From Trypanosoma brucei (lineage: Eukaryota): a stretch of 64,000 bases of DNA. The translations under genes and the position numbers were made by a program. Location of the stretch: positions 288,001-352,000 of the forward strand of contig CP000071.1 in NCBI GenBank assembly GCA_000002445.1. Direction: 5' to 3'. The notes beneath the pieces were generated by a model. The model was not told where the DNA came from, ran no database searches, and saw only the letters and a program-made list of their open reading frames with translations. Shown one piece after another: positions 1 to 25,354 of the stretch; within the stretch, counting starts at the first letter, position 1, and each line of letters opens with the position of its first letter.

Positions 1-516
1 CGTACCGTTAAGGGAATCGGAAGACACGCTTTCAGCAGCTCCCTTGCATTTTTCAGCCGCGCTCCTGACTCTCCAATTGGAATTGTGTCCTGCCACCTCC
101 TTCAACATGCGCTCTAACGCTGCTATACGATTGCTCCTGATCTCTTCAATATTCTCCGCCCTAAACTCAGTCTCAATGGATGCGGTTTCAGCTTTCTTGG
201 CGGCCTCAGTAACGTTGGAAGCAACACGCTTCGCACGCTCGACGGGATCGGTGGCATTTCTGTTCTCCCACAAGACATCCTCAGCCAAAGTTACATATTC
301 ATCACTCCGAGTCTTGGCATTCGATATCTTCAATGATTCGGTAGTTATCCAATATTTTAGGTCACGGACGGCATCTTTCAGTCCCCTGAACTGCTTCAGA
401 GCATTACACAATGTAACAGTTTGCTCAAGTGTAAGATTATTGTTCTTACCAACAGCAAATGGCATGCACAGGAGTACAACTGCTGTGAAACAGGTGAATC
501 GCGTCATTTGGCTCAA
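1..516 (-). CDS. Gene B copy 0, 5' part only (N-terminal ~172 codons). The gene continues to the left beyond the window. Product is an Ala-rich, GPI-anchored surface-protein family member.
   Basis: Reverse strand of 1..516 is near-identical to 10427..10943, the B1 N-terminus including the signal peptide MSQMTRFTCFTAVVLLCMPFAVG. The ATG lies at 516..514. Confidence 0.7.
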   Translation of the reverse strand, partial: MSQMTRFTCFTAVVLLCMPFAVGKNNNLTLEQTVTLCNALKQFRGLKDAVRDLKYWITTESLKISNAKTRSDEYVTLAEDVLWENRNATDPVERAKRVASNVTEAAKKAETASIETEFRAENIEEIRSNRIAALERMLKEVAGHNSNWRVRSAAEKCKGAAESVSSDSLNGT

Positions 517-555
517 CTCTCTCTTGGATGTGGAAATCTTGGAATGATGTTTCGT

Positions 556-588
556 CTACAAAATGGTAAGGAAAGATAGCAACAAAAG
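556..588 (-). promoter_or_regulatory. Polypyrimidine tract plus candidate AG spliced-leader acceptor upstream of the gene B start. The same element recurs at ~10983..11015 and ~21378..21410.
   Basis: The minus-strand sequence cttttgttgctatctttccttacc is followed by attttgtAG about 40 nt upstream of the ATG at 516. This is the typical kinetoplastid trans-splicing signal arrangement. This is inference; there is no RNA evidence. Confidence 0.35.
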
Positions 589-900
589 TTGATACTATGC
601 ATGAAATGACACGGAGAAAATGAGACCAACTGGAAGCCATAATTAGTCACTTATGCACAAGGCACAACATCTTTACGGAAAACACAACTAAAGTCGTTGA
701 CATACATGGACTACACAACACAGAAGCAGTGATGTATATGACAGTATGCCTCAGTCACACTTCCATATGTGCATGCACGCTCATAAGCATTGCCAACTTT
801 CTTGTTGTTCGTATCTTATCCATTCATAAAACATCCCCAACAGAGTGGCATCCATTGACAGCATGCGGTAATAAGTGCCTCCAGCAGCTGTCAGACAAGA

Positions 901-3900
901 TTAGTTGTGCGACGAATCACATGAGAGAGAAACATTGCTTTCCTCATCGTGATTGGGATACGCCTGCGCTTCGTCGACGGATGCCGCATGCGGATTATGA
1001 AAAGGTGGTGTGTCGTATACAGGCAGCACAGTGACTCCTTCACCGTCAACATGGGTGTGCCCGCTGTAATTTATAGTGTCTCTGCCACGAGTCGCAGTTG
1101 AGTTGAAGGGAAGCACAACGGCTTGGGGTAGTGGTAGAGGAATCGAGCGCATGGCCTGCTGCAAACGGACATAATCACTAAACTCGGCATCAACTATCGC
1201 CTGCCACTCCTCTTCCTCCCAGTTCACGAGCCGCATACGCCGCCCAGCCTCGCTTTCAAGCATAAACGTCGACTCCTCGTAGAAGTGCTGTGTAGTGGTG
1301 TAACTCATCATGTCATAACTCGTGAGCCGCGACGTATCATGAACGTCCGTCGACATCTCTGACATGGTATCATGAACGGAAACCTCGATTTCCTCACGTG
1401 TTTGCGATTGCAAGCGCCGACGCTGTGAGGCACGCCTCATATAAATGGCATTCAGCAGGTCCGGGTGATCTGCCGGTACAGTCACAGGTATTGGATTGAC
1501 ATTCACACCCCTGCCAGTCGGACCCTCATACATGCTGAATTCTCCACTGTAGTCAAATTGTAGTTCCAGTTCCTTTGCATCCACGCGGATACGCTCAATA
1601 CCGTCTGTAAAGACAAGCGCCATGTTGTAGCGGTCCCTCGCCTCCTGTAATGCGATCTGATCACGATCATCACACTCTTGCTCCTCGACAGAAGTCCAGT
1701 CCGCCCTCCCAGGAAAGTCACCGCCCCACGCAAAGTCGTCAACACCCGATGTCATGCCATCGATCATCGTCCTCGCGGTGGTATTGGTATTGGGGGAACC
1801 ATCACCAGAGTAGAACCCCAGAAGCAGTGGGTTGTTACCGCTTTCCAAATATTCGGGGTCGGGAGATGTTCCACTGATACAAGACATGTCGAGATTGTCC
1901 AGCTGCATCTTATCTGCAACGACAAGTTGTCGCTCCTCCTTCTCCTTAGAGCAGCATCGTCGCAAAAAGCACACGGCAAGCAACAACAGCAGCAGAAACA
2001 GCAACACAGCTGCCACAATAATGGCAATCACCGCCCCCATTCCCAATGGACCCCAAGCAGACCCACCACATATATCCCCACTTGCCTTCACATTACCCAA
2101 AGTAACGCAGTAGGTATTGTCTGTGAGGTCCCATGCGCAAACACTGAACTCCGTGCCCGCGGGGTAGTCTCTAATTTTGTTGTGGTTCATCCTCAACTTA
2201 CACTTGCCATCTGAGCCCTCACTGGCTTCCCCGACGGTGACGCCCTTGTCAGTGGGGTTGCAACAGTCACCCTTGATCACACGCACAACCGTCTGGCGGT
2301 GGGAAGAGTCCGGTGCACGGCACGACTCGAGTGGTGTCACCTTACAAGGTTCCACTATCGAAGGAAATACACTGACGGGTGGAATGAAGCGGAGGCTAGA
2401 GCTCAAAGGGACACTGACGACTGAACGGTTGACAGGAGTGGTAGCGCAGAAATATATCGAGTCCGTACCATTTTGCGCGGTAACAGAAACACGGCGGGCG
2501 CTTGCCGCGTCATCATCACCCACCAGTGCCCAACTTCCATGTGATTCATTTCGACGCAGGCAACTTCTGTCTGTGCTAAAACCGGGAAGCAAGCTCTCAG
2601 CATACAGGTCGTCCATCAAGTACAGAACGCCAGGAACACCAAGAAGGACGTCTCTCCCACGAATATTGTAATACGTAGGGTCAAATGTCTCAATCTGCGC
2701 AATCGGGAGGAGCTGCTTTGCCGAAGCAACACGTGCTGCTATCCCATTAGCGCTTATTTTCACAATTTTGGGACGCGTCGCACTGCCGTCAAAAACCTCC
2801 TGGCAGAGCGTCCACACACCCGCGGATGGTAACCCGGCCGCATTCACGTTCTTGAACGATATATTACCACGCGCCTCCTCGTCAGTCGTAAAGAATGGCA
2901 CCACGTCCTCACCACCACAGGAAGCATCTCGCCGCAGACGAAATGCTGAGTTTGGCGACAGAGGAATGTACACCTCTGCCTCCGTCCCCAGAACAAATGA
3001 CGACGGAAAGATGATATCAGTAGAAACCTCCACTTCCGATACAACACTGAGGTTCCCGGCGGGGGTCCCAACGCACAACGACACGGAAGGCAACCTCCCT
3101 GGAATGAAGGTCGGACCCAGTACAACGCTGCCGCTCGGCCGCACGTAACCCACAGAGTTCCCCGTCAGAGTGGTTGCGCACGCATTTTCGGAGAGATATA
3201 CGCCACGAAAGTCGGAGTTGTGTAGATACGCAAGTGGGTTCTCTGCGTCTTCCCCGGGCACTAACGAGTACAATGGCTTTGCTCCAGAGACCACAGGTGT
3301 CTGCAGTTTTGCGTGAAACCGAGCAGTGGGAACCGCCGCAGGATCGATCTTCTTCACGATGGGCGGAGTTATGATGAGAACCTCCGCTACTGGTATTGGA
3401 GGCGAGGTGGGTTGTTCCCCCAATACACATACACATTTCACGCCTGAGATACCTATTAGCGTAACCGCCTCCTCAACTGGGGTCTCTGCAAGACCGGGGG
3501 CCGCCACAATCTTCTCGCCACACACCGCGCAATCGCTTAGGTACGTGTCCGGTGTTCGGGTAGCGTAGTTCATCACTAAGTTCGCAGGCCCTAGCACCTC
3601 GCTGTCGCTATCCACACGTCCATGAATGCTAGGGTTCACAACACGGAAGTTTTCCACTGAAAGCGTCGGGCCATCTGTTGTGAAGACATACCCAGGATCC
3701 CTTATTGTGTGTGTACACACATAAAACGTAAGATTCCGATTGTACCGTGGCGTCATTGTGGCTCTGCTCTGACTAAGTACTCCATTGCAGTCACTCCTTG
3801 TGGAAAGAAAGGGACTGGTAAGGATCGCCTTGTCAATGCCATAGTCGGTTACTTGTTTCGCTGGAAGCGCCGTCACCGGCCGTACCGCAGGCTGCTTTCC

Positions 3901-6900
3901 ACCGGGGCATTCATCTAAGTGAATCAGTTGCATAGTCCCACGCATAACATACCCACCGCTTTCCCCACGCTCACAATAGTACACATCTGTCAGATCACGG
4001 TTCCGGTATTTGCACTTATCCACATGCAGCGTTGACATAGAGTTGGCTATGACCGTGTCGTACTCACTCAAGATACTGTCAGTACACGCTTCTAAGGTGG
4101 AGATCCTCACCCTCCCACTTTGAATGCCACTGGACTCCACGGTCACACTGCGACCTGCAATAATCGTCGCAGGAGTCATGTAGTGAAAAATATTGAAAGT
4201 AGATGCAGGCAACTTATCATACGCAGAAATACCGACACACACCCTGGCACCCTTCGCCACAGCTGGCGTCTTCACAATGGTAACATCCTTACTGTGTTCG
4301 CCGGAAGCAAAGGGAAAACTGTCATACGAAGCATTCGCCTCTGTGCAGTTAAGCTCTGGGGGGACAATGTAAACGGTGAGATTCGACGCCCCTATATGCA
4401 AGCTACCCCCATCAAGGGTCAAGCGAAGAGGTGTGTGCTTCCGTACGAGTGACACATTAAAGGACGCCGTAAACGGGTTAATCACCTTAAGGGGCTTCTG
4501 ACCAACAGCAACTCCCAAACGCCGCTCATCCTGCTGACACAATGCATATTCGCCTAGTAGAACATCCTCCAAGGGAGTAGTTGGCCCAGTGTAGTAGCGC
4601 TCAGTCGCCTCCTCACAAATCCTTGCATTCAGTGGGACTTTGCAGGAAGCGGCGTTGACACAGCGCACGAGGAACAAAGATGCCTTCTTAAGCAGCGGTC
4701 TTGCCACAAAATTATTCGTTGACCTACGGACAGCGTACAGAGAATCCACAGCAAAATCCTCAGCACTTACCTTCCCTCCGTACAAGTAATACGATTCATT
4801 GGTATCACCCCACCCCACGCAAACATGCAGTTCGCCAGCCTTCTGAACCACAAAAGGTTCTGCACTCCCACTTATGGGGTCAACCCAACCCTCACCGTAC
4901 ACCCTAATGCCACCACCGGGGGCACTTTGGCACGACTCAATGCTCTCGCTCACAAGAAAGCGTGTTGGCTGCAGCGCAGTCAGCGCCTCTCCTCGAAACC
5001 TCATGCTGAGGGGAAGACCAACAACGCCAATAGGTGAATCCGGCACAAGCTCTAGCTGCTGCTGTGACTGAATTAAACCTACATCTTCGTATCCATTCCC
5101 CTTCCACAGGCATACCTTCCATTTCTTCATACCAACAGCTGTGTAGACCACATACGCCGGACCCACTTCAGTAATTCTAATAGCAACGGCAGTACCATCA
5201 TCCACAATTTCGCCACAGTTCACATCACTCGTTTCCTTAAAAAGCACCTTCAGACCTTTGAGGGAGGTCTTATCAGGTACAATAAAATTGACTCGATTGC
5301 TTACGCCAACGAACACGGTCCTGGGGAATACCTCCACATCGGAAACAGCTAACATACCCGATACCCTCACTTTCCAGGCACCCCCATCACTGTCATGGTA
5401 ACCAACACATACGTACACCTTGCCAACTGTGTTGCGCATCACCGTCACGGACGCCTCCCCTTCAGCCGTTGCATTTACCTCAGAAATGGATGGTGTGCAG
5501 CTCTCACTTTCACTGAACACTATGGGCGCCTCAGGCGGTACGGCGGACACCTTGACGGGTGTACTGACACCTTTTACAATGGAAGCCGGCGACAACTCCG
5601 CAGGACCGTATACCATGACATTCCCAACGTTCGAATAGGGGCGATTCACAGGATGTTCCGTGCCCGGTGTCTTCACACACAGCACATGTCTACCCGCAGT
5701 AGAAAACGCAACGCCGTACAGGGCAGTTGCATTCATGGAGTATGTCTCCCCGACTGGTGTAAGGCAATTATCCAGGGAGAAATACCCGGTTGTTCCTGCC
5801 TTGAGAGTCACGTTGGCATCAAGATGAATCGTCTCAGCCACACCCACGAAAAGGGTCCGGTGTTTCAGTTTGTATCGCCGCGTCGCAATATTCTTCACAG
5901 GGTAGGTATATCCCTCGTCAGGTTCCTCGTCCGCTTGTAGGTCGACAGATGAGGGAGTCGCGACACACAAAGTCATGTTCGGGAGTGCGTCCTCAGGAAC
6001 TCGAAACGTGACAGAACTTGCGCCAACTCTCACATCACCTTTTGAGTTGAGTTCCTCACACTCCGGGGTTACCGATAAACCAACCGTTATCACACCACTC
6101 CGCCCCGCATTGTGGCCGCTCAACAAAACCGTCAAATCAAGTCCACTGATCACGTTGGCTTCATCAAATGATACCGTCGGTGGCGGCAGAACTGTCACAA
6201 CAGCCGCACGCGCCTTGGGGTATGCAGTCGTGCTCCCCTCAAGACACGCGTAGTACGTACCTGAAACAGGTAAGGCAACTGCACCCCCATCCGAACGCGA
6301 GCGACGCTTCTTTACTGGGGGGCCCCGATATTGGATTCCTGATGGACCATCCACACGCACAGCCCCTGTACAGTTGGAATACATGTAGAAATCAAGCACC
6401 AACTTCACATCGTTAGCAGCTGCAGTCGCTGCATCCATTGTATACTTAATGCGAGTCCCGTACCCACTGTATAGGGTCCGTGGCTGAACGCCGTACTCCC
6501 GAACAGTTACCTTGTTCTCAGATGGTGAATATAACCTGCCACCCTTGTGGTAGGGCCAACCATTACACAGAAAATAGTCACCTTTAGGCACAGAAACCTC
6601 CATATTAACAACCTGCAACGTTTCCCCACCCACGGGGTCCTGAAGGATCGGATCACATAGGGGTGACTGAGAAAAAGTTGCCCACACGAGGTTGCCTACA
6701 GCCTCCAAGCGAAATGTTTCGTTCGTGTGCCGAAGTGCATCAGTGTTGTTCGTGTCATAACGTGGCACAGCAAGTAACACAGAGGCAGGAACGACGAAAG
6801 TTTTGCCATCACTCGTGGGTACCTTAGCACAAAGATAAATTACGCTTTGGACACTCCGTGTCACTCTCACCTCCCGGTTAGAACCCAGTTCGGCAGGTGG

Positions 6901-7494: not shown

Positions 7495-9521
7495 ACGCTA
7501 CAACAACCTTCTCAGTACTCGCTTATTCCCTTTCTCTCAACGTGTATGCCTTTATGCTCTTGCAGAAAACTATTTACGGTGTGCGTATTCGCCAACCCGC
7601 GTAAACCTAAGACGATTGTGCACAGACTCCTCTGTCTCTGTCTCTCACACTAGTTCCTTACCACGCGACCCGTTTAAGAGGGAAGTGGCTAAACTATGTA
7701 AGGTGCTTATGGAATTACTACGGTACTGACCTTCACTTATCTTCGTGTACTCCGTTTAACTTTCAATTGCCCCTCCGCAGTGATGAACTCTTTTGTTTGA
7801 TTTCTTCTATGGTTGCTTCTATCCTCAGTTACTATGAAGATACAGCTGTATCTATTACCTCCGTTACTCGACAAAAATGTTTCCCCGGTGAAAAAGGGAT
7901 GTGCCTCTATGGATATACAAATGTATGAGTCCACAAATGTATGGATATGCAGGTGTAGAAAATATGCGACCCTACACGTACAGCTTTTCTATGTAACGTC
8001 CTGTTGAAATGGTCCTCGTTTACTCTTATTTGTGCTTTCTCGTATCGTTGTCGATCTCCTTCCCGTTCCACAACAGACTTTTCTCGCAATATCGCTCGCC
8101 TGTGTATCGGTAAATCAATTCACAAAACACCTTTATGGTAGGAACGGTATATCAAACTGATGAATATTTAGTGTGCGAAGCTTGAGGCTACGCTACTGAT
8201 CAATGCGGACAACACGTCGGGCAGAAAACTACAGAAACTAAAACAAAAGGGCTAAAAATGCGGTAAAAAAATCTATAAACCTATGTAAATGATGGTAGCG
8301 ATATATTGTCAGAGCTGCTTCGCGAAACAGAAATGGCAACTGAATGGCTAACTAAAAAAAACAAAAAAGATCTAGCAGTAATATCGCGCTGCTTCTGCAC
8401 AACGTCTAAAGTGTGATGCACGGAAAGGAAGTAGTTTTTCAAGAGAAGTGCACACAAAATGGTAAGCACATGGGTGAGGAATGCGCTCCATAGACATCAA
8501 TGAATAAACCCCGCGCACACAAGCAAGTGAAACGACATATCAAAAGAAGTTACAATGCAACACTTAAAGAGTACAACATGTGCTGGTGAAGTAACAAAAC
8601 CCACACATTCACTTTTTAAAAATGGTCAAAAGATATAATGCCCCTGAATTTATTAAGAAGAGGTGGGCATCAGGGTAGCACAGGCGGATACAACTCCAGG
8701 CCAAGAGGGCAACAAAGACATATGAACTGCAAGTGCAAACAATTACTATAATGTTTTACATTTAGCAACCGACACACTATAAATGACCACAAGGGACTTT
8801 AACATGTCCCCGATAGATCCACCCACAATCGCTAAACGAAGTAATTCAAGCGAGCACATAAACTCACGGCAACATTCCAAGCGTAGCAAACACAATGTAG
8901 TGGAGAGCAGACGTACAGCACCTGGAAGGCGCCATCTCAAACTCGGTACTCACTAATACATACCACACAGCTGCACAGTTCAGTCATATAATGAACATTA
9001 AACGGTTATATATATAATAACTGCTACAATAAGGAAAAAAAGGGAGGGGGGAAAGGGAAGCAATTATGAAGTCAAGACTAAATTAATACTTTACATACAC
9101 AGCAGAGAATTGCACAATCTGTAAAGCGCTCACACATGTAAGTATACACAAGAAGGAGTAAACACTAAAATGAAAACACGGATGAAAATAATGAAGAAAC
9201 GCTAACGCACCTGCTCACCAACACAACATAGCAGTCTACATTGCTGTATATGTGATGTGCATAAAATGTCGAGAAACTAGGAACAAACACTAAATAAAGG
9301 TACCAGAATAGCCATGCCGATACTTTAAAAGAAAAAAAGAATTTATAAAAAAATATATTAGGATCATGATTAGCATATAAAAGTGAAAACGCTATTGAAA
9401 ACAATGGCAACGATAAAACCATAACGAGAAGCCTTAAGTAACACCCAACAATGACACGTTTGCGTGTATGTAATCCCTCACGCTAATCCTTGGCTGCTAC
9501 ACCGAAACGGTACTACTTGGA

Positions 9522-14300: not shown

Positions 14301-17300
14301 CACCGGCCGTACCGCAGGCTGCTTTCCACCGGGGCATTCATCTAAGTGAATCAGTTGCATAGTCCCACGCATAACATACCCACCGCTTTCCCCACGCTCA
14401 CAATAGTACACATCTGTCAGATCACGGTTCCGGTATTTGCACTTATCCACATGCAGCGTTGACATAGAGTTGGCTATGACCGTGTCGTACTCACTCAAGA
14501 TACTGTCAGTACACGCTTCTAAGGTGGAGATCCTCACCCTCCCACTTTGAATGCCACTGGACTCCACGGTCACACTGCGACCTGCAATAATCGTCGCAGG
14601 AGTCATGTAGTGAAAAATATTGAAAGTAGATGCAGGCAACTTATCATACGCAGAAATACCGACACACACCCTGGCACCCTTCGCCACAGCTGGCGTCTTC
14701 ACAATGGTAACATCCTTACTGTGTTCGCCGGAAGCAAAGGGAAAACTGTCATACGAAGCATTCGCCTCTGTGCAGTTAAGCTCTGGGGGGACAATGTAAA
14801 CGGTGAGATTCGACGCCCCTATATGCAAGCTACCCCCATCAAGGGTCAAGCGAAGAGGTGTGTGCTTCCGTACGAGTGACACATTAAAGGACGCCGTAAA
14901 CGGGTTAATCACCTTAAGGGGCTTCTGACCAACAGCAACTCCCAAACGCCGCTCATCCTGCTGACACAATGCATATTCGCCTAGTAGAACATCCTCCAAG
15001 GGAGTAGTTGGCCCAGTGTAGTAGCGCTCAGTCGCCTCCTCACAAATCCTTGCATTCAGTGGGACTTTGCAGGAAGCGGCGTTGACACAGCGCACGAGGA
15101 ACAAAGATGCCTTCTTAAGCAGCGGTCTTGCCACAAAATTATTCGTTGACCTACGGACAGCGTACAGAGAATCCACAGCAAAATCCTCAGCACTTACCTT
15201 CCCTCCGTACAAGTAATACGATTCATTGGTATCACCCCACCCCACGCAAACATGCAGTTCGCCAGCCTTCTGAACCACAAAAGGTTCTGCACTCCCACTT
15301 ATGGGGTCAACCCAACCCTCACCGTACACCCTAATGCCACCACCGGGGGCACTTTGGCACGACTCAATGCTCTCGCTCACAAGAAAGCGTGTTGGCTGCA
15401 GCGCAGTCAGCGCCTCTCCTCGAAACCTCATGCTGAGGGGAAGACCAACAACGCCAATAGGTGAATCCGGCACAAGCTCTAGCTGCTGCTGTGACTGAAT
15501 TAAACCTACATCTTCGTATCCATTCCCCTTCCACAGGCATACCTTCCATTTCTTCATACCAACAGCTGTGTAGACCACATACGCCGGACCCACTTCAGTA
15601 ATTCTAATAGCAACGGCAGTACCATCATCCACAATTTCGCCACAGTTCACATCACTCGTTTCCTTAAAAAGCACCTTCAGACCTTTGAGGGAGGTCTTAT
15701 CAGGTACAATAAAATTGACTCGATTGCTTACGCCAACGAACACGGTCCTGGGGAATACCTCCACATCGGAAACAGCTAACATACCCGATACCCTCACTTT
15801 CCAGGCACCCCCATCACTGTCATGGTAACCAACACATACGTACACCTTGCCAACTGTGTTGCGCATCACCGTCACGGACGCCTCCCCTTCAGCCGTTGCA
15901 TTTACCTCAGAAATGGATGGTGTGCAGCTCTCACTTTCACTGAACACTATGGGCGCCTCAGGCGGTACGGCGGACACCTTGACGGGTGTACTGACACCTT
16001 TTACAATGGAAGCCGGCGACAACTCCGCAGGACCGTATACCATGACATTCCCAACGTTCGAATAGGGGCGATTCACAGGATGTTCCGTGCCCGGTGTCTT
16101 CACACACAGCACATGTCTACCCGCAGTAGAAAACGCAACGCCGTACAGGGCAGTTGCATTCATGGAGTATGTCTCCCCGACTGGTGTAAGGCAATTATCC
16201 AGGGAGAAATACCCGGTTGTTCCTGCCTTGAGAGTCACGTTGGCATCAAGATGAATCGTCTCAGCCACACCCACGAAAAGGGTCCGGTGTTTCAGTTTGT
16301 ATCGCCGCGTCGCAATATTCTTCACAGGGTAGGTATATCCCTCGTCAGGTTCCTCGTCCGCTTGTAGGTCGACAGATGAGGGAGTCGCGACACACAAAGT
16401 CATGTTCGGGAGTGCGTCCTCAGGAACTCGAAACGTGACAGAACTTGCGCCAACTCTCACATCACCTTTTGAGTTGAGTTCCTCACACTCCGGGGTTACC
16501 GATAAACCAACCGTTATCACACCACTCCGCCCCGCATTGTGGCCGCTCAACAAAACCGTCAAATCAAGTCCACTGATCACGTTGGCTTCATCAAATGATA
16601 CCGTCGGTGGCGGCAGAACTGTCACAACAGCCGCACGCGCCTTGGGGTATGCAGTCGTGCTCCCCTCAAGACACGCGTAGTACGTACCTGAAACAGGTAA
16701 GGCAACTGCACCCCCATCCGAACGCGAGCGACGCTTCTTTACTGGGGGGCCCCGATATTGGATTCCTGATGGACCATCCACACGCACAGCCCCTGTACAG
16801 TTGGAATACATGTAGAAATCAAGCACCAACTTCACATCGTTAGCAGCTGCAGTCGCTGCATCCATTGTATACTTAATGCGAGTCCCGTACCCACTGTATA
16901 GGGTCCGTGGCTGAACGCCGTACTCCCGAACAGTTACCTTGTTCTCAGATGGTGAATATAACCTGCCACCCTTGTGGTAGGGCCAACCATTACACAGAAA
17001 ATAGTCACCTTTAGGCACAGAAACCTCCATATTAACAACCTGCAACGTTTCCCCACCCACGGGGTCCTGAAGGATCGGATCACATATGGGTGACTGAGAA
17101 AAAGTTGCCCACACGAGGTTGCCTACAGCCTCCAAGCGAAATGTTTCGTTCGTGTGCCGAAGTGCATCAGTGTTGTTCGTGTCATAACGTGGCACAGCAA
17201 GTAACACAGAGGCAGGAACGACGAAAGTTTTGCCATCACTCGTGGGTACCTTAGCACAAAGATAAATTACGCTTTGGACACTCCGTGTCACTCTCACCTC

Positions 17301-17921
17301 CCGGTTAGAACCCAGTTCGGCAGGTGGCAGACCTTGAATCATGCTCACGTCGTCACAGTTTTCATTGCGGTGAAATGTAATGAAGGTTCCAACAGGCACT
17401 GCGTCGCCGAATCGAATAGTGTTGTCAACATCACGTTTCAAATAGCGTGGTATGGCTTCAACAAGGCTCAGCTGCACAGACAAAGAAAGGGAGGGAAACG
17501 CATCACCAGCACATATATACACTTCACGTACTTTCGTATCGTACCACGGGTCAATGCCCACATCATTGCTCGTAACCGTGAAATTACATGGCGCATTCTT
17601 GGATATTTTGCACTTGGAGCCAATGATCTGTGTATTGTCACATGTACTCATACGCGAAACGAAAATATCTGCTTTGATACTCTGGTCCGTCGTTTCCACA
17701 CTGAACGGTACGTTCACCAGCGGTTTGTTAGGTCGTAACACAAGTGATGCAGCTCCACTGCTGCATAAAAACGTTGACGACACGATGCACAGAACTGAAG
17801 CCCAAAAAGTAAAGGGCACCTTACAGCAATGTCGGTAACGTGGAGATAGAGAGGAAGCATGGCTGGTACCTGTGCCACAGTGGGTTGAGTCCCTTCTTAG
17901 AAACATTTGCATAAATACCAA
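11328..17921 (-). CDS. Gene A copy 2: a 2197-aa type I transmembrane modular surface protein. It differs from copy 1 by one residue (SPLCDPIL versus SPICDPIL).
   Basis: The ORF is identical in length and frame to 901..7494 at an offset of 10427. Confidence 0.85.
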   Translation of the reverse strand: MVFMQMFLRRDSTHCGTGTSHASSLSPRYRHCCKVPFTFWASVLCIVSSTFLCSSGAASLVLRPNKPLVNVPFSVETTDQSIKADIFVSRMSTCDNTQIIGSKCKISKNAPCNFTVTSNDVGIDPWYDTKVREVYICAGDAFPSLSLSVQLSLVEAIPRYLKRDVDNTIRFGDAVPVGTFITFHRNENCDDVSMIQGLPPAELGSNREVRVTRSVQSVIYLCAKVPTSDGKTFVVPASVLLAVPRYDTNNTDALRHTNETFRLEAVGNLVWATFSQSPICDPILQDPVGGETLQVVNMEVSVPKGDYFLCNGWPYHKGGRLYSPSENKVTVREYGVQPRTLYSGYGTRIKYTMDAATAAANDVKLVLDFYMYSNCTGAVRVDGPSGIQYRGPPVKKRRSRSDGGAVALPVSGTYYACLEGSTTAYPKARAAVVTVLPPPTVSFDEANVISGLDLTVLLSGHNAGRSGVITVGLSVTPECEELNSKGDVRVGASSVTFRVPEDALPNMTLCVATPSSVDLQADEEPDEGYTYPVKNIATRRYKLKHRTLFVGVAETIHLDANVTLKAGTTGYFSLDNCLTPVGETYSMNATALYGVAFSTAGRHVLCVKTPGTEHPVNRPYSNVGNVMVYGPAELSPASIVKGVSTPVKVSAVPPEAPIVFSESESCTPSISEVNATAEGEASVTVMRNTVGKVYVCVGYHDSDGGAWKVRVSGMLAVSDVEVFPRTVFVGVSNRVNFIVPDKTSLKGLKVLFKETSDVNCGEIVDDGTAVAIRITEVGPAYVVYTAVGMKKWKVCLWKGNGYEDVGLIQSQQQLELVPDSPIGVVGLPLSMRFRGEALTALQPTRFLVSESIESCQSAPGGGIRVYGEGWVDPISGSAEPFVVQKAGELHVCVGWGDTNESYYLYGGKVSAEDFAVDSLYAVRRSTNNFVARPLLKKASLFLVRCVNAASCKVPLNARICEEATERYYTGPTTPLEDVLLGEYALCQQDERRLGVAVGQKPLKVINPFTASFNVSLVRKHTPLRLTLDGGSLHIGASNLTVYIVPPELNCTEANASYDSFPFASGEHSKDVTIVKTPAVAKGARVCVGISAYDKLPASTFNIFHYMTPATIIAGRSVTVESSGIQSGRVRISTLEACTDSILSEYDTVIANSMSTLHVDKCKYRNRDLTDVYYCERGESGGYVMRGTMQLIHLDECPGGKQPAVRPVTALPAKQVTDYGIDKAILTSPFLSTRSDCNGVLSQSRATMTPRYNRNLTFYVCTHTIRDPGYVFTTDGPTLSVENFRVVNPSIHGRVDSDSEVLGPANLVMNYATRTPDTYLSDCAVCGEKIVAAPGLAETPVEEAVTLIGISGVKCVCVLGEQPTSPPIPVAEVLIITPPIVKKIDPAAVPTARFHAKLQTPVVSGAKPLYSLVPGEDAENPLAYLHNSDFRGVYLSENACATTLTGNSVGYVRPSGSVVLGPTFIPGRLPSVSLCVGTPAGNLSVVSEVEVSTDIIFPSSFVLGTEAEVYIPLSPNSAFRLRRDASCGGEDVVPFFTTDEEARGNISFKNVNAAGLPSAGVWTLCQEVFDGSATRPKIVKISANGIAARVASAKQLLPIAQIETFDPTYYNIRGRDVLLGVPGVLYLMDDLYAESLLPGFSTDRSCLRRNESHGSWALVGDDDAASARRVSVTAQNGTDSIYFCATTPVNRSVVSVPLSSSLRFIPPVSVFPSIVEPCKVTPLESCRAPDSSHRQTVVRVIKGDCCNPTDKGVTVGEASEGSDGKCKLRMNHNKIRDYPAGTEFSVCAWDLTDNTYCVTLGNVKASGDICGGSAWGPLGMGAVIAIIVAAVLLFLLLLLLAVCFLRRCCSKEKEERQLVVADKMQLDNLDMSCISGTSPDPEYLESGNNPLLLGFYSGDGSPNTNTTARTMIDGMTSGVDDFAWGGDFPGRADWTSVEEQECDDRDQIALQEARDRYNMALVFTDGIERIRVDAKELELQFDYSGEFSMYEGPTGRGVNVNPIPVTVPADHPDLLNAIYMRRASQRRRLQSQTREEIEVSVHDTMSEMSTDVHDTSRLTSYDMMSYTTTQHFYEESTFMLESEAGRRMRLVNWEEEEWQAIVDAEFSDYVRLQQAMRSIPLPLPQAVVLPFNSTATRGRDTINYSGHTHVDGEGVTVLPVYDTPPFHNPHAASVDEAQAYPNHDEESNVSLSCDSSHN

Positions 17922-19949
17922 ACGCTACAACAACCTTCTCAGTACTCGCTTATTCCCTTTCTCTCAACGTGTATGCCTTTATGCTCTTGCAGAAAACTAT
18001 TTACGGTGTGCGTATTCGCCAACCCGCGTAAACCTAAGACGATTGTGCACAGACTCCTCTGTCTCTGTCTCTCACACTAGTTCCTTACCACGCGACCCGT
18101 TTAAGAGGGAAGTGGCTAAACTATGTAAGGTGCTTATGGAATTACTACGGTACTGACCTTCACTTATCTTCGTGTACTCCGTTTAACTTTCAATTGCCCC
18201 TCCGCAGTGATGAACTCTTTTGTTTGATTTCTTCTATGGTTGCTTCTATCCTCAGTTACTATGAAGATACAGCTGTATCTATTACCTCCGTTACTCGACA
18301 AAAATGTTTCCCCGGTGAAAAAGGGATGTGCCTCTATGGATATACAAATGTATGAGTCCACAAATGTATGGATATGCAGGTGTAGAAAATATGCGACCCT
18401 ACACGTACAGCTTTTCTATGTAACGTCCTGTTGAAATGGTCCTCGTTTACTCTTATTTGTGCTTTCTCGTATCGTTGTCGATCTCCTTCCCGTTCCACAA
18501 CAGACTTTTCTCGCAATATCGCTCGCCTGTGTATCGGTAAATCAATTCACAAAACACCTTTATGGTAGGAACGGTATATCAAACTGATGAATATTTAGTG
18601 TGCGAAGCTTGAGGCTACGCTACTGATCAATGCGGACAACACGTCGGGCAGAAAACTACAGAAACTAAAACAAAAGGGCTAAAAATGCGGTAAAAAAATC
18701 TATAAACCTATGTAAATGATGGTAGCGATATATTGTCAGAGCTGCTTCGCGAAACAGAAATGGCAACTGAATGGCTAACTAAAAAAAACAAAAAAGATCT
18801 AGCAGTAATATCGCGCTGCTTCTGCACAACGTCTAAAGTGTGATGCACGGAAAGGAAGTAGTTTTTCAAGAGAAGTGCACACAAAATGGTAAGCACATGG
18901 GTGAGGAATGCGCTCCATAGACATCAATGAATAAACCCCGCGCACACAAGCAAGTGAAACGACATATCAAAAGAAGTTACAATGCAACACTTAAAGAGTA
19001 CAACATGTGCTGGTGAAGTAAAAAAAACCCACACATTCACTTTTTAAAAATGGTCAAAAGATATAATGCCCCTGAATTTATTAAGAAGAGGTGGGCATCA
19101 GGGTAGCACAGGCGGATACAACTCCAGGCCAAGAGGGCAACAAAGACATATGAACTGCAAGTGCAAACAATTACTATAATGTTTTACATTTAGCAACCGA
19201 CACACTATAAATGACCACAAGGGACTTTAACATGTCCCCGATAGATCCACCCACAATCGCTAAACGAAGTAATTCAAGCGAGCACATAAACTCACGGCAA
19301 CATTCCAAGCGTAGCAAACACAATGTAGTGGAGAGCAGACGTACAGCACCTGGAAGGCGCCATCTCAAACTCGGTACTCACTAATACATACCACACAGCT
19401 GCACAGTTCAGTCATATAATGAACATTAAACGGTTATATATATAATAACTGCTACAATAAGGAAAAAAAGGGAGGGGGGAAAGGGAAGCAATTATGAAGT
19501 CAAGACTAAATTAATACTTTACATACACAGCGGAGAATTGCACAATCTGTAAAGCGCTCACACATGTAAGTATACACAAGAAGGAGTAAACACTAAAATG
19601 AAAACACGGATGAAAATAATGAAGAAACGCTAACGCACCTGCTCACCAACACAACATAGCAGTCTACATTGCTGTATATGTGATGTGCATAAAATGTCGA
19701 GAAACTAGGAACAAACACTAAATAAAGGTACCAGAATAGCCATGCCGATACTTTAAAAGAAAAAAAGAATTTATAAAAAAATATATTAGGATCATGATTA
19801 GCATATAAAAGTGAAAACGCTATTGAAAACAATGGCAACGATAAAACCATAACGAGAAGCCTTAAGTAACACCCAACAATGACACGTTTGCGTGTATGTA
19901 ATCCCTCACGCTAATCCTTGGCTGCTACACCGAAACGGTACTACTTGGA

Positions 19950-21338
19950 CTACAAAAGACCAGTTCCTAGCAAACACACCAGAAAAGACGCAAATGCTAT
20001 GGGTGTAGTAGTAGGAGAGTAGTCGGTCTCTCGGTTTAATTTTAATTCGGCAGCTTGAGCGTACTGCATCGCGGCATTGAGTTGTTTGTATTCCCTGTGG
20101 AGAATAGTAAGACTTTCGATCAATTTCGCCGTATCTTTTTTTAGTCTTTTGGAAGATTGGGCGGGAATGCTGTGGAAAAGCCCATTTTTTGTGTCCTCCA
20201 GAGATTTAGGTGTTACAACCTCGGCCGTCTCTCTGCATGCCTCAGCAGCCTTCCTTGTTGCTTGTGAGGCGGCGTATTGAGAAATCGACAAGAGTGTTTT
20301 TTCAAGGGAACCTGCATATGCGGCTGCAACAGATTTCATATAAACCGAGTGACCTGTTAAAGCTCGATACGCTTTTTCCGCCGCCTCGGCAGCTTCCGCA
20401 ATTTCATTAACAGTCTCCCTCACCCGCTGCGACAAGAGCTTGCCTTTGCCATCCTCATTTGCCTCTTCCGCGAGCTGAACAACATTATCACTCCTTATTT
20501 TAGCATCAGCAGCCTTTTGGGCCATGGTCTTGGAAATTTCTTCAATGTTGCTGACAAAAATGGGTAGTGCCCTGTACTGTTCAGCGGCAATACACAATGC
20601 TTGTGTCTGTTGTAGTGTGAGATTGTACCTCTTTCCGTATGCAGACACAGCTTTTGTAACAGCTTCCCGAACCCTAAACTCAGTATATTCCGCATTTATT
20701 TTTATTTCGACAAGGGATTGGGCTGCGCCCTCGAGTTTGTGGAGTTTGTTGGAAGCGTCGCGGGTAGCTTCCTTCAACCTCTTAATCGACTTCGCAGGGA
20801 AATATTGCAACATATCGTCCAGCGCATGTATTAGAGATTCAACGGTCACATTTTTAGTGGTTTTGTTGCATGATTTTGCAACCCCTTTCACCTCTACAGT
20901 TCCTCCTTCGTTCCCTAACTTCTTCAATGCACCCTCAAGCGAGGGTACGTAGGCGCTACTGATGGTTCCAAGAACTCCGGCATCAACATCAGATTCCAAA
21001 ATCACAATTTCCGCTTTTTTAACGGCCTCAGTAACGTTGGCAGCAAGAACTCTGGCTCGTTTTTCTAGAGCCTTAGCCTTTGTGGTCGCCTGAGCGGGCT
21101 CTTTAACACGCCTCAACTGTTCATCACTCCGAGTCTTGGCATTCGATATCTTCAATGATTCGGTAGTTATCCAATATTTTAGGTCACGGACGGCATCTTT
21201 CAGTCCCCTGAACTGCTTCAGAGCATTACACAATGTAACAGTTTGCTCAAGTGTAAGATTATTGTTCTTACCAACAGCAAATGGCATGCACAGGAGTACA
21301 ACTGCTGTGAAACAGGTGAATCGCGTCATTTGGCTCAA
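19950..21338 (-). CDS. Gene B copy 2: a 462-aa paralogue of B1. The first 73 residues and last 3 residues plus the stop are identical, but the central ~385 codons are different. They are homologous but strongly diverged, and 11 codons shorter. It has a predicted GPI signal …TTTPIAFASFLVCLLGTGLL.
   Basis: The DNA is identical to B1 from the ATG (21338) down to 21120, then diverges over 19963..21119, then is identical again from 19962 through the stop and 3' flank. Internal two-half repeat is preserved (KRYNLTLQQTQALCIAAEQYRAL; SLIHALDDMLQYFPAKSIKRLKEATRD versus SLEDTKNGLFHSIPAQSSKRLKKDTAK). Confidence 0.8.
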   Translation of the reverse strand: MSQMTRFTCFTAVVLLCMPFAVGKNNNLTLEQTVTLCNALKQFRGLKDAVRDLKYWITTESLKISNAKTRSDEQLRRVKEPAQATTKAKALEKRARVLAANVTEAVKKAEIVILESDVDAGVLGTISSAYVPSLEGALKKLGNEGGTVEVKGVAKSCNKTTKNVTVESLIHALDDMLQYFPAKSIKRLKEATRDASNKLHKLEGAAQSLVEIKINAEYTEFRVREAVTKAVSAYGKRYNLTLQQTQALCIAAEQYRALPIFVSNIEEISKTMAQKAADAKIRSDNVVQLAEEANEDGKGKLLSQRVRETVNEIAEAAEAAEKAYRALTGHSVYMKSVAAAYAGSLEKTLLSISQYAASQATRKAAEACRETAEVVTPKSLEDTKNGLFHSIPAQSSKRLKKDTAKLIESLTILHREYKQLNAAMQYAQAAELKLNRETDYSPTTTPIAFASFLVCLLGTGLL

Positions 21339-23463
21339 CTCTCTCTTGGATGTGGAAATCTTGGAATGATGTTTCGTCTACAAAATGGTAAGGAAAGATA
21401 GCAACAAAAGTTGATACTATGCATGAAATGACACGGAGAAAATGAGACCAACTGGAAGCCATAATTAGTCACTTATGCACAAGGCACAACATCTTTACGG
21501 AAAACACAACTAAAGTCGTTGACATACATGGACTACACAACACAGAAGCAGTGATGTATATGACAGTATGCCTCAGTCACACTTCCATATGTGCATGCAC
21601 GCTCATAAGCATTGCCAACTTTCTTCCCCGACTAACCAGGAGCTCTGTAGCAAACACAGTAACTATGATGTCTCGCAGTCAATGACCAAAATAAAAAATA
21701 AAAACAAACGCGAGAGGTCTGACAGACCTTTTCCCCCCATATTTTTTGGATCAACGCAATCACGCAAATTGGGCGCATCAACCGCACGATAGGAGAGCAT
21801 TCATAAGTGGAACTGCACCAGGCTCTGTTGAAAAAAGAAAAAAAAGAATGGTCATTTAGCATTTCACGGCACCCCGTGTCGGAAGAAAAGCACAATTCAA
21901 GGGCAGTTGATCGTCACCACCACCCTCGCTAGAGGTCATCTTGAATTTTGTTGGAACCCGCACATTTTTTCGTGCAGCGCTTATCGATTTACAAGCCCTT
22001 ACGCGTTTCTTCACCCCACAATGTTGCGACGTTGTGTTATTCTTGTTGATTTCATTGTGTGACCCAACATCGTTCTTAGCTTCGTGACAACACGGTGTAG
22101 TGCACCAGTAATGAACGTGTTGGTTTCGCACATTTGCACACAGCCTTGGCTCGCGCTCCACACATCTCTCATGTGCCGTTCTTTTCTCGTTCATAACTGT
22201 TTTTGTGTTAAAACACCTGCATATATTTTTGAAATAACCTTAAGTAGTTACCGGTCAACTCGAGGCATTCATCAGAGCCGTTGCGCGTGGGAACTGAATA
22301 TATGTTGATTACATCAGCGTCCGTAAAGACGTTAAAGTTTCGGCAACGGCGTAACTGTGGGGAGGACCAATCCTACTGAAATGAATAACGCAGATATAAG
22401 ATGTGTTGTTACTCACGACACTTGGTTCATGTCAACCTAGCAGAAAAGGCAAAGTAAAAAAGAGAAAATAACAGACCGAAACAGAAAAGTGGATAATGGT
22501 ATAAAAAAGTTGGCAGTGTGAATGTTGTGGGGAGAGGGAGGTGGTGCCAGCATTGAAACGGAACGTGGGCTTGCGCTACGATATGGTTAGGCATTCCAGC
22601 AAATGCTGCCTAAGACTTAAATTGTAATGCCAAGAAACAAAAATGGATTATTGAGAAGAGACGAGAATGCAGCATAAATTGAATTGAAGGCACCAAAGCA
22701 AATAAATTTCTGCATGTGGGTGGGAATACTCCTGACTTGAGGTATCGCGGTGGCCTGCTGCAACCCTTCACTATACGAGTGACAGTGCGCGCAACGTATC
22801 TTTTCTTGCGTCGAAGTCTTTCTTCGATGCAGTCGCCAATGAAAAGAACTGAAGTTAAAAACTGCACAAGAACGAGCCTACACCGCGCTACAGGGGGGGA
22901 CTTTAAAATGTGGTACAGATAACTAAAAAAAGAAGTAAACAAAAGAAACGGGAGGAATTCAAGAAACAAAAAGAAACGAAAAGAAAAAGCGGAGAGTAAT
23001 CTCCCATCATAACATTCGTCTTCTCACCAAGCCCAAACGCTTTCTTTCCCCCTTTCATTGCCCTTTCTCAACAAATTTTTTCACCTGCGGTCCTTCACAT
23101 TACATACGACCCCATACCGAGCTCCAGCATCTACAAAAATTGAAAACAAAACAGAAGAAAAGAAAAATAGAAAGAAAAAAGAAAAAAAGAAGGGGACTTG
23201 GTGCGCGCCGTCATTGTTCCAAGTTACCACGCGCAGGTATATCCGTTTTGGCATAAAGTTGCTAGTTGCAACTCGAAATGTCCCTTTTTCACAGGTCACT
23301 CTTATAGCCCCTTTCCCCCTTGTCGGCTCTCATCGCCCCCCACCCCACCCTCCCACTGTCCACCGCATAATGTTTGACACCTACCCCACTGCACTGTTTG
23401 CCGTCACATTCACCTTTTAGTCTCACTGTTGTGTTCGTGGGGGGAAAAAATTGAGAAAACATA

Positions 23464-25272: not shown

Positions 25273-25314
25273 ACTCTCCGTTTTAACTTACTGAGTATAT
25301 AAACGATATATACG

Positions 25315-25320
<6 letters not shown>

Positions 25321-25354
<34 letters not shown>
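25321..25354. repeat. (TA)17 microsatellite. Further (TA)n / (AT)n tracts lie at ~25511-25533, 25817-25842 (followed by (GT)5), 35303-35323 and 38531-38548.
   Basis: Seen directly in the sequence. Confidence 0.95.

What the first reader, a model, noticed from the sequence alone, without database searches (positions are those of the whole stretch)
1..21624. Tandem array of a two-gene surface-protein unit (B then A), 10.43 kb per unit, 2+ copies, running off the left edge of the window
The unit pairs a giant modular type I TM protein (A) with a GPI-anchored, alanine-rich, two-domain glycoprotein (B). The copies are almost identical: the two A copies differ by one residue. They are not byte-identical, though. 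There are scattered SNPs and a 1-bp indel, and flank SNPs that copy 0 shares with the far-right copy but not with copy 1. This argues for a real array kept uniform by concerted evolution, not an assembly duplicate. In kinetoplastids, tandem amplification is the usual way to raise expression of abundant surface molecules, so this looks like a dedicated surface-coat or adhesion module. I could not assign either protein to a named family from memory. The A-with-B pairing suggests the two act together, for example as a receptor plus a co-factor, as in other trypanosome TM-plus-GPI protein pairs. That last point is inference.
Basis: partly seen in the sequence, partly recalled or inferred. Interest (0 to 1): 0.8.

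Follow-up and report, generated by a model that had tools for sequence, protein, structure and literature searches.

The report
Known FCP1 / CESP-like gene array
This is a real but already annotated stretch of Trypanosoma brucei chromosome 8, where two copies of the flagella-connector gene FCP1 alternate with three GARP/CESP-family surface-protein genes; the two gene kinds sit together through local recombination, not because they are known to work together.

Summary
Window 1-9534 repeats at 10428-19962 (99.92% identical, 7 SNPs and one 1-bp indel, period 10,427 bp).

**Identity.** The window is T. brucei TREU927 chromosome 8.
- A (901-7485 and 11328-17912) is Tb927.8.940/.960, the published flagella connector protein FCP1. 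It lies in the layer between the old and new flagellar membranes, so it is not a coat protein.
- B (1-507 partial, 9522-10934, 19950-21329) is Tb927.8.930/.950/.970. These are GPI-predicted double-GARP-domain proteins of surface family Fam50, the published sister clade of T. congolense CESP. Their transcripts peak in salivary-gland stages.

**Layout.** The third B (.970) is not a near-identical copy. Its first 70 residues match the other B genes exactly; the remaining residues are about 32% identical. The array is B'-A-B-A-B and ends just left of the window. An independent long-read assembly shows the same layout, so it is not an artefact.

**Evolution.** Copies group by strain (59 sites) and never by position (0 sites), which supports concerted evolution or repeated duplication.

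**A-B pairing.** FCP1 homologues in T. cruzi, T. vivax and Leishmania sit in the same gene neighbourhood with no B gene nearby. The pairing is therefore lineage-specific, and nothing supports a functional pairing.

**Verdict.** Already known; low interest.

The parts
1..9534 (-). Repeat unit copy 0 (truncated by the window edge)
   Evidence: 99.916% identical to 10428-19962.
10428..19962 (-). Repeat unit copy 1
   Evidence: period 10,427 bp.
1..507 (-). B0 = Tb927.8.930, first 169 codons only (the gene runs off the window)
   Evidence: Same as the N-terminal part of B1. The full 470-aa protein (P0014) differs from Tb927.8.950 at I128V and E358G.
298..803 (-). 506-bp '5' patch', copy 0. It covers 296 nt upstream of the B start codon plus the first 70 codons, and all three B genes share it.
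   Evidence: 100% identical to 21120-21625 and 99.6% identical to 10725-11230. A pyrimidine-rich tract followed by AG lies 45-110 nt upstream of the ATG; this is a candidate trans-splice site.
901..7485 (-). A0 = Tb927.8.940 = FCP1 (flagella connector protein 1), 2194 aa
   Evidence: Exact match to XP_846931/AAZ12865. FCP1 = Tb927.8.940 in PMC6529878. Layout: hydrophobic signal at about residues 40-59; 17 modules of about 97 aa, each with a conserved Cys pair; a Cys-rich stalk at 1714-1806; a transmembrane segment at about 1815-1840; the motif CFLRRCC; and a 347-aa tail.
7486..9521 (-). 2.0-kb AT-rich spacer holding the B 3' UTR and the region upstream of A
   Evidence: GC about 0.40. Carries the indel and SNPs at 8592, 8595 and 9104.
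9405..9534 (-). ~130-bp '3' patch' (last 13 nt of the B coding sequence plus 117 nt downstream). All B genes share it. Proposed crossover site that created the duplication.
   Evidence: Homology between the B0 flank in other assemblies and the B1 flank stops at 9405. 9405-9534 is identical to 19833-19962.
9522..10934 (-). B1 = Tb927.8.950, 470 aa, two GARP domains
   Evidence: Exact match to XP_846932. Pfam PF16731, two stretches, E = 3e-69. C-x6-V[ST]xxSL motif at residues 154 and 356.
10725..11230 (-). 506-bp 5' patch, copy 1
11328..17912 (-). A1 = Tb927.8.960, second FCP1 copy (L276I)
   Evidence: Exact match to XP_846933 and identical to a T. equiperdum OVI protein. Reported as palmitoylated and raised in procyclic forms (PMC4765897).
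19833..19962 (-). 3' patch at the end of B'
   Evidence: Identical to 9405-9534.
19950..21329 (-). B' = Tb927.8.970, 459 aa. Divergent double-GARP paralogue with a mosaic make-up.
   Evidence: Exact match to XP_846934. PF16731, two stretches, E = 1e-117. Residues 1-70 are identical to B1 and identity then drops abruptly. The AF2 model is all-helical (pLDDT 77.7). Its best PDB matches are T. brucei FHR 6xz6, GARP 2y44 and MISP 5vtl (TM 0.82-0.86 normalised to the target).
21120..21625 (-). 506-bp 5' patch, copy 2; the right-hand end of the array
   Evidence: Sequence to the right of 21625 is unique and leads to the phosphoacetylglucosamine mutase gene at 23464-25272.

Best explanation
**What the genes are.** The region is the annotated T. 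brucei chromosome 8 locus Tb927.8.930-.970. In the direction of transcription it reads B'(.970) - FCP1(.960) - B(.950) - FCP1(.940) - B(.930).

[quoted passage not shown] Its depletion releases the tip early.
- Shown here: FCP1 has a roughly 1750-residue ectodomain of 17 divergent beta-sandwich modules, each with a conserved cysteine pair. These are followed by a cysteine-rich stalk, one transmembrane helix, juxtamembrane cysteines and a 347-residue cytoplasmic tail.
- Inferred: this matches a protein that fills the interstitial layer between the two flagellar membranes and ties it to the submembrane layers. In that respect it would work like a metazoan Ig- or cadherin-type junction protein.

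**The B genes.** They encode predicted GPI-anchored proteins made of two tandem GARP-type three-helix bundles. They belong to Fam50 and are sister to the T. congolense adhesin candidate CESP. Their transcripts are enriched in salivary-gland stages. Their function is untested; ligand binding or adhesion on epimastigote or metacyclic surfaces is an inference from relatives.

**How the array arose (inferred).** Fam50 genes came to flank an ancestral single FCP1 gene, giving PAGM-B'-FCP1-B-UQcon. B' and B share a 506-bp 5' patch and a roughly 130-bp 3' patch. Unequal crossing-over in the 3' patch duplicated the 10,427-bp [FCP1 + B] block. Continued recombination, whether gene conversion or repeated loss and re-duplication, keeps the copies alike within a strain.

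**The pairing.** The A-B adjacency is a product of this recombination and does not indicate a shared function.
For: **Identity**
- Exact protein matches to the TREU927 entries.
- FCP1 = Tb927.8.940 and serves as the flagella-connector marker (PMC6529878).
- FCP1 lies in zone 3, between the two membranes (PMC11555346).
- Depletion severs the connection prematurely (PMC9826329).
- The interstitial zone is 13-28 nm thick, with filaments projecting from both membranes (PMC4731218).

**FCP1 architecture**
- Transmembrane segment and cysteine map; 17 modules.
- The cysteines are invariant from T. brucei to Leishmania.
- The AF2 model of residues 55-700 is all-beta, pLDDT 71.5. Foldseek matches are chains of Ig/FN3/macroglobulin-type sandwiches.

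**B genes**
- Pfam GARP found twice per protein; PDB sequence hits 6xz6, 2y44 and 5vtl; fold matches.
- Fam50 clade 'ii', described as a tandem array on chromosome 8 and sister to CESP (PMC3605285; PMC2739429).
- GPI prediction and salivary-gland expression (PMC3378594; PMC8483307).

**Array**
- The IVM-t1 long-read assembly is colinear: PAGM-B'-A-B-A-B-UQcon.
- Patch boundaries.
- Site patterns: 59 strain-specific, 0 copy-specific. At 53 of the 59, both TREU927 copies differ from IVM-t1 and gambiense.

**No coupling**
- T. cruzi has DnaJ-281aa-RRM-PAGM-A-UQcon with no B-like sequence.
- T. vivax has A-UQcon. L. tarentolae has paralogue-A-UQcon.
Against: - The original FCP1 paper (Varga et al. 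2017) was not available, so localisation and phenotype come from papers that cite it.
- The crossover model is inferred from patch boundaries alone.
- Short-read polishing of the IVM-t1 assembly could make its two copies look more alike than they are. That cannot explain the 53 sites shared by both Sanger-derived TREU927 copies.
- T. congolense synteny was not examined, so the age of the A-B adjacency within African trypanosomes is unknown. The T. vivax contig shows only 909 nt upstream of A.
- No data here exclude a physical A-B interaction in salivary-gland stages.
- The AF2 models rest on very shallow alignments (4-5 sequences).
Confidence: 0.82

Rival explanations
1. A and B form a dedicated two-component surface module, such as a receptor plus a GPI-anchored co-factor, and were amplified together because they function together.
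For: - The two genes alternate and are duplicated as one block.
- Both products are predicted to face the outside of the membrane.
- CESP, a relative of B, has been linked to adhesion, and FCP1 is a junction protein.
Against: - A is pan-trypanosomatid and sits in the same gene neighbourhood without any B gene in T. cruzi, in L. tarentolae, and in the part of T. vivax that could be seen.
- B belongs to a family restricted to African trypanosomes.
- Stage profiles differ. A protein is raised in procyclic forms, while B transcripts peak in salivary glands.
- Fam50 MISP genes on chromosome 7 also alternate with unrelated genes, so this layout is a habit of the family.
- Gene adjacency in trypanosome polycistrons does not imply shared function (established knowledge).
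Confidence: 0.06
2. The tandem duplication is an assembly artefact, for example two alleles of a heterozygous diploid locus laid end to end.
For: - The two copies differ by only 0.08%, which is within the range of allelic differences.
- The T. b. gambiense DAL972 assembly shows a single A flanked by two B genes.
Against: - An independent long-read assembly of another Trypanozoon strain (IVM-t1) carries the same two-copy layout over more than 30 kb.
- The junctions fall exactly at short homology patches, as expected for unequal crossing-over.
- A T. equiperdum OVI contig joins the B' body to A, as in TREU927.
Confidence: 0.03
3. The duplication is kept by selection for gene dosage, either of FCP1 or of the B protein. 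Trypanosomes have little gene-specific transcriptional control.
For:
- Two strains retain two copies, and the copies are homogenised.
Against: - FCP1 marks one small structure per dividing cell, so a need for high dosage is not obvious.
- T. cruzi and T. vivax carry one copy. The gambiense assembly shows one.
- No expression or fitness data were available to test dosage.
- This rival is compatible with the recombination origin given as the best explanation.
Confidence: 0.25

Closest known systems
FCP1, flagella connector protein 1 (Tb927.8.940; Varga et al. 2017, as cited in PMC6529878, PMC11555346 and PMC9826329)
   Same: The sequence is identical; it is this gene. A type I membrane topology with a very large ectodomain fits its published position in the interstitial zone 3 of the flagella connector.
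   Different: Nothing differs for copy A0. The second copy (Tb927.8.960) differs by L276I. The module count, the fold assignment and the conserved neighbourhood with T. cruzi and Leishmania homologues were worked out here. I could not check whether they have already been published.
Fam50 clade 'ii' / T. congolense CESP (Jackson et al. 2013, PMC3605285; Sakurai et al. 2008, as cited)
   Same: GARP-domain proteins with a signal peptide and a predicted GPI anchor. They are expressed in late insect stages and arranged as a chromosome 8 tandem array. This locus is the one the phylome paper describes.
   Different: An adhesion role has been proposed only for CESP; the T. brucei proteins are untested. 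The sharp B/B' mosaic (residues 1-70 identical, the rest about 32%) is not mentioned in the passages I read.
Single-bundle trypanosome surface proteins with solved structures: factor H receptor (6xz6), T. congolense GARP (2y44), MISP360 (5vtl), HpHbR (4e40, 4x0j)
   Same: Each half of B is predicted to adopt the same elongated three-helix bundle (TM 0.82-0.86 normalised to the target for 6xz6, 2y44 and 5vtl; rmsd 2.2-3.0 A). Each half carries the family motif C-x6-V[ST]xxSL.
   Different: B has two bundles in tandem on one chain. Sequence identity to the solved proteins is only 18-26%. No ligand is known.
MISP locus on T. brucei chromosome 7 (PMC10089363)
   Same: Fam50 genes alternate with unrelated genes in a repeated unit.
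   Different: The interleaved genes there are small hypothetical genes, not FCP1. I did not analyse that locus.
Metazoan Ig-superfamily and cadherin-type junction proteins
   Same: The design is the same: a string of beta-sandwich modules, one transmembrane helix, and a cytoplasmic tail that can connect to submembrane layers, bridging two apposed membranes.
   Different: There is no detectable sequence relationship: no Pfam hit and no PDB sequence hit. The Cys-Cys spacing is 24-43 residues, not what I recall for classical Ig domains (my own knowledge, not tested). The resemblance is of fold class only, from a medium-confidence model.

Membership tests
FCP1 (flagella connector protein 1) | Sequence is that of Tb927.8.940 | tested here: met
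   Exact look-up returns XP_846931 / AAZ12865 for 901-7485 and XP_846933 for 11328-17912. PMC6529878 equates FCP1 with Tb927.8.940.
FCP1 (flagella connector protein 1) | Localises to the flagella connector (zone 3), and loss causes premature release of the new flagellum tip | not testable with these tools
   Taken from the literature only. The primary paper was not held.
Pfam GARP (PF16731) / cell-surface phylome Fam50 | Match to the family HMM above the gathering score | tested here: met
   B1 scores 232.9 bits and B' scores 391 bits against a cut-off of 27.4. Each protein has two matched stretches.
Pfam GARP (PF16731) / cell-surface phylome Fam50 | Conserved cysteine followed by a VTxxSL-like motif (Jackson 2013) | tested here: met
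   C-x6-V[ST]xxSL is present in all four domains: B1 residues 154 and 356, B' residues 154 and 365. The motif is described.
Pfam GARP (PF16731) / cell-surface phylome Fam50 | Elongated three-helix-bundle fold | tested here: met
   AF2 model, pLDDT 77.7, all-helical. Foldseek matches: 6xz6 TM 0.84, 2y44 TM 0.86, 5vtl TM 0.82, each normalised to the target. This is a predicted structure, not a solved one.
Pfam GARP (PF16731) / cell-surface phylome Fam50 | N-terminal signal peptide and C-terminal GPI-addition signal | tested here: inconclusive
   Hydrophobic N- and C-termini are visible in the sequence. No GPI predictor was run here. BigPI and FragAnchor predictions are published for .930 and .950, and .970 is called GPI-anchored.
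Pfam GARP (PF16731) / cell-surface phylome Fam50 | Falls in clade 'ii', sister to T. congolense CESP | not tested
   Literature statement only. No T. congolense sequence could be retrieved, because the word-based search returned only one hit.
Tandem array under concerted evolution | Two or more head-to-tail copies confirmed in an independent assembly | tested here: met
   The IVM-t1 long-read assembly is colinear with the window across both units and on to UQcon.
Tandem array under concerted evolution | Copies within a genome are more alike than copies at the same position in different genomes | tested here: met
   Within a strain the copies are 99.93% and 99.86% identical. Between strains at the same position they are 99.28% identical. 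There are 59 strain-specific sites and 0 copy-specific sites, and at 53 of the 59 both TREU927 copies stand apart. Repeated independent duplication would give the same pattern.
Ig-superfamily / cadherin-type adhesion proteins | Match to an Ig, FN3 or cadherin sequence profile | tested here: not met
   No Pfam family at E <= 0.01. No meaningful PDB sequence hit.
Ig-superfamily / cadherin-type adhesion proteins | Ectodomain built of tandem beta-sandwich modules | tested here: met
   17 repeats of about 97 aa. The AF2 model is all-beta. 228 PDB matches at E <= 0.001; the listed top 50 are almost all multi-domain Ig/FN3/MG-type chains. This shows fold class only.

The most novel reading that the evidence does not exclude
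The FCP1 family is an ancient trypanosomatid flagellar-membrane adhesion protein; homologues exist in T. cruzi and Leishmania, although the one source read here says the flagella connector is present only in T. brucei. In T. brucei its neighbourhood with CESP-like genes might not be accidental: FCP1 and the double-GARP proteins could cooperate in flagellum-mediated attachment or flagellum-to-flagellum contacts of salivary-gland stages. A milder version is that recombination keeps the 5' and 3' ends of B and B' identical so that they share regulation, while their ligand-binding bodies stay about 32% identical under selection for two specificities.
Probability: 0.06. Interest if true: 0.55.

Novelty: already known. 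Interest (0 to 1): 0.17.

Why it matters
It matters little as a discovery. Both gene kinds are annotated in the reference genome, and both are in the literature: FCP1 as a flagella-connector component, and Tb927.8.930-.970 as the Fam50 chromosome 8 array sister to CESP.

Three by-products could be useful to specialists:
1. A clear domain map of FCP1, with 17 cysteine-paired beta-sandwich modules that are conserved as far as Leishmania. This gives a concrete model for the filaments seen in the interstitial zone of the connector.
2. A clean small example of concerted evolution, with identifiable crossover patches.
3. The fact that Tb927.8.970 is a mosaic paralogue with identical ends and a divergent body. 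This matters for designing primers, RNAi or antibodies that are meant to tell the B genes apart.

Tried and rejected
- **Word-indexed protein search.** It returned only 4 relatives of A and 1 of B. Repeating it with an alignment of the A hits gave nothing more for A. The exhaustive HMMER search was needed to see the A family: 30 cluster representatives, including T. grayi, T. cruzi and Porcisia.
- **Reading left of the window.** TREU927 itself is not in the gene-position index, so I could not read that sequence directly. I used the colinear IVM-t1 and gambiense loci instead.
- **Primary FCP1 paper.** Varga et al. 2017 is not held, by DOI or by PMC id.
- **Sequence-family searches for A.** No Pfam family and no PDB sequence relative.
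- **RNA genes and tandem repeats.** No tRNA genes, Rfam families or notable tandem repeats were found in the array.
- **All three B genes near-identical?** Considered and rejected; B' is diverged.
- **Assembly artefact or allele mis-join?** Considered and rejected.
- **Polishing artefact as the cause of the strain-specific pattern?** It could affect IVM-t1 but not the 53 sites shared by both TREU927 copies.
- **T. congolense CESP synteny.** It could not be examined with the collections available.

Full report

Yes. A self-comparison of the window shows that 1-9534 repeats at 10428-19962 with 99.916% identity (7 mismatches, one 1-bp gap). A 506-bp piece occurs three times, at 298-803, 10725-11230 and 21120-21625.

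The differences between the two units are SNPs at 126, 502, 621, 2263, 6660, 8595 and 9104, plus an indel at 8592. Only the SNP at 6660 changes the large protein, L276I.

All large ORFs in the 64-kb window lie on the minus strand. That pattern is typical of a kinetoplastid polycistron.

**2.

The third B gene (19950-21329) is not a near-identical copy. There is no DNA-level similarity between 9535-10724 and 19963-21119.

At the protein level, residues 1-70 are identical to B1 and the last three residues (GLL) also match. Overall identity is 42.7%, which leaves roughly 32% for residues after 70 (worked out from the numbers).

Domain 1 of one protein is closest to domain 1 of the other (44%). 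Domain 2 is closest to domain 2 (40%). Domain 1 against domain 2 gives only 29-33%. The internal domain duplication is therefore older than the split between B and B'.

The array therefore reads B'-A-B-A-B in the direction of transcription.

**3. Identity of the sequence**

Exact protein look-ups place the window on T. brucei brucei TREU927 chromosome 8:

| Gene in this report | Locus tag |
|---|---|
| B0 | Tb927.8.930 |
| A0 | Tb927.8.940 |
| B1 | Tb927.8.950 |
| A1 | Tb927.8.960 |
| B' | Tb927.8.970 |

These are followed upstream by phosphoacetylglucosamine mutase and other housekeeping genes.

**4. Gene A is FCP1**

- PMC6529878 lists FCP1 = Tb927.8.940 as the reference marker of the flagella connector. 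It describes the structure as present only in T. brucei.
- PMC11555346 places FCP1 (with FC1) in zone 3, the electron-dense layer between the membranes of the new and old flagella.
- PMC9826329 states that depletion of FCP1/2/4 and FC1 severs the connection prematurely.
- Tb927.8.960 is reported as palmitoylated and raised late in differentiation and in procyclic forms.

The primary paper (Varga et al. 2017) was not available.

**5. Architecture of FCP1, worked out here**

The parts of the protein, in order:
- A hydrophobic signal at about residues 40-59.
- 17 modules with a mean period of 97 residues. Each has a conserved cysteine pair 24-43 residues apart and a hydrophobic-Tyr-x-Cys type second motif.
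- A cysteine-rich stalk at residues 1714-1806.
- One strong transmembrane segment at about residues 1815-1840.
- The juxtamembrane motif CFLRRCC, which fits the reported palmitoylation.
- A 347-residue tail.

The cysteines are invariant in an alignment with T. vivax and two Leishmania homologues.

An AF2 model of residues 55-700 is all-beta (mean pLDDT 71.5, alignment of only 4 sequences). Its PDB matches are chains of Ig/FN3/macroglobulin-type sandwiches: hydin-like central-apparatus proteins, GhpA, CD109, complement C5, mastigoneme protein, LILRB3 and RPTP-sigma.

There is no Pfam hit and no PDB sequence match. The resemblance to adhesion molecules is therefore one of design, not of family membership.

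Cryo-tomography found regular filaments projecting from both flagellar membranes into a 13-28 nm interstitial zone (PMC4731218). FCP1 ectodomains are an obvious candidate for these filaments. That is inference.

**6. Gene B is a double-GARP Fam50 protein**

- Both B1 and B' match Pfam GARP (PF16731) twice, far above threshold.
- Each domain carries the family motif C-x6-V[ST]xxSL.
- PDB sequence hits are the T. brucei factor H receptor 6xz6, GARP 2y44 and MISP360 5vtl.
- The AF2 model of B' (pLDDT 77.7) is two sets of long helices. Its fold matches are the same three proteins (TM 0.82-0.86 normalised to the target), followed by HpHbR and ISG65.

The literature already describes these genes:
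- They are 'related to CESP' (PMC2739429).
- They are GPI-predicted, with transcripts enriched in salivary glands (PMC3378594; PMC8483307).
- CESP itself has been proposed to aid attachment, with mixed evidence.

**7. Is the array real, and where does it end?**

A long-read assembly of T. b. equiperdum IVM-t1 is colinear with window 24787 to 1. It then continues through the rest of B0 to a ubiquitin-conjugating-enzyme gene. Its layout is PAGM-B'-A-B-A-B-UQcon, with exactly two A genes and three B genes.

A T. equiperdum OVI contig joins a B' body that is 100% identical to the one in the window to A.

The T. b. gambiense DAL972 assembly shows PAGM-B-A-B-UQcon, with both B genes of the .950 type. 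This could be a true deletion or a collapse through the 506-bp patch; I could not tell which.

**8. How the array formed and is maintained**

B' and B share two short patches:
- A 506-bp 5' patch, made of 296 nt upstream of the start codon plus 70 codons.
- A roughly 130-bp 3' patch, made of the last 13 nt of coding sequence plus 117 nt downstream.

The middle gene B1 has a B-type body followed by the B'-type downstream flank. That is what an unequal crossover in the 3' patch of an ancestral B'-A-B locus would produce. A crossover, or an assembly collapse, in the 5' patch would give the gambiense layout. This model is inference.

For the maintenance of the array there is a direct test. I aligned both units of TREU927 and both units of IVM-t1.
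- 59 sites separate the strains, with both copies agreeing inside each strain.
- No site groups copies by position.
- 20 sites are singletons.
- At 53 of the 59 sites, both TREU927 copies stand apart from IVM-t1 and from gambiense.
- Within a strain the copies are 99.93% and 99.86% identical. Across strains they are 99.28% identical.

This is the signature of concerted evolution. It could equally reflect repeated loss and re-duplication at the same patches. Polishing of the IVM-t1 assembly could inflate the similarity of its own copies, but not that of the TREU927 copies.

**9. Do A and B belong together functionally?**

The evidence says no.

- The A family is pan-trypanosomatid. An exhaustive search found 30 cluster representatives, nearly all 1,900-3,400 residues long, including T. 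grayi, T. cruzi, Porcisia and Leishmania.
- In T. cruzi the neighbourhood is DnaJ-281aa-RRM-PAGM-A-UQcon. This is the same order as in the window, but without any B-like sequence.
- T. vivax has A-UQcon.
- L. tarentolae has two tandem A-family paralogues followed by UQcon.
- B belongs to a family confined to African trypanosomes.
- Stage profiles differ between A and B.
- MISP genes, another Fam50 clade, likewise alternate with unrelated genes.

**10. Verdict**

The claims that the array is real and under concerted evolution are supported. The claims of a surface-coat module, a functional A-B pair and unknown families are not.

Both genes and the array are already annotated and published, so novelty is 'already known' and interest is low. 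Three points remain of residual interest:
- The FCP1 domain map.
- The presence of conserved FCP1 homologues in T. cruzi and Leishmania; the one source read here (PMC6529878) says the flagella connector is present only in T. brucei.
- The mosaic nature of Tb927.8.970.

Noticed in passing
L002 (T. b. gambiense DAL972, FN554971.1) 2617-19608: The gambiense assembly has PAGM-B-A-B-UQcon. It holds one FCP1 gene, both B genes are of the .950 type, and there is no .970-type body. This is either a real recombinational deletion through the 506-bp patch or an assembly collapse.
   Followed up: partly
L003 (L. tarentolae) 745-6672 and 10001-16750: Two tandem FCP1-family paralogues (1975 and 2249 aa, each about 28% identical to T. 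brucei FCP1) lie upstream of the UQcon gene. The source read here lists the flagella connector as 'Not present in Leishmania', so what the family does in Leishmania is unknown.
   Followed up: partly
window 1-507 and 9522-10934 (Tb927.8.930 / .950): The two proteins differ at only two residues (I128V, E358G). A published RT-PCR survey nevertheless lists different stage profiles for them (PMC3378594). The assays may not distinguish the two genes.
   Followed up: no
L006 10001-13278 and L007 10001-11716 (T. b. equiperdum IVM-t1): In this long-read assembly the FCP1 genes are annotated as fragments of 891, 179 and 571 aa. Alignment to the window shows many small indels, so the fragmentation looks like sequencing error, not pseudogenes.
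   Followed up: partly
window 25273-28911: A 3.6-kb stretch between the PAGM gene and the RRM-protein gene has no ORF of 120 aa or more. Its GC content is lower than the surroundings, and it holds an (AT)24 microsatellite at 25306-25354.
   Followed up: no
window 23464-34329 versus L005 (T. cruzi) 488-8709: The gene order DnaJ - protein of about 260-280 aa - RRM protein - phosphoacetylglucosamine mutase - FCP1 - UQcon is conserved between T. brucei and T. cruzi. The Fam50 genes are therefore the only insertions in this block.
   Followed up: yes
window 508-900 and 10935-11327: Only 393 nt separate the FCP1 stop codon from the next B start codon. The FCP1 3' UTR, its polyadenylation site, and the B splice acceptor and 5' UTR must all fit there. 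By contrast, 2.0 kb separate the B stop codon from the next FCP1 start codon.
   Followed up: partly
window 42827-50788 and 54517-57171: Two further genes were not examined beyond a Pfam scan. One is a 2653-aa protein with weak WD40/beta-propeller matches. The other is an 884-aa protein with no Pfam match.
   Followed up: no
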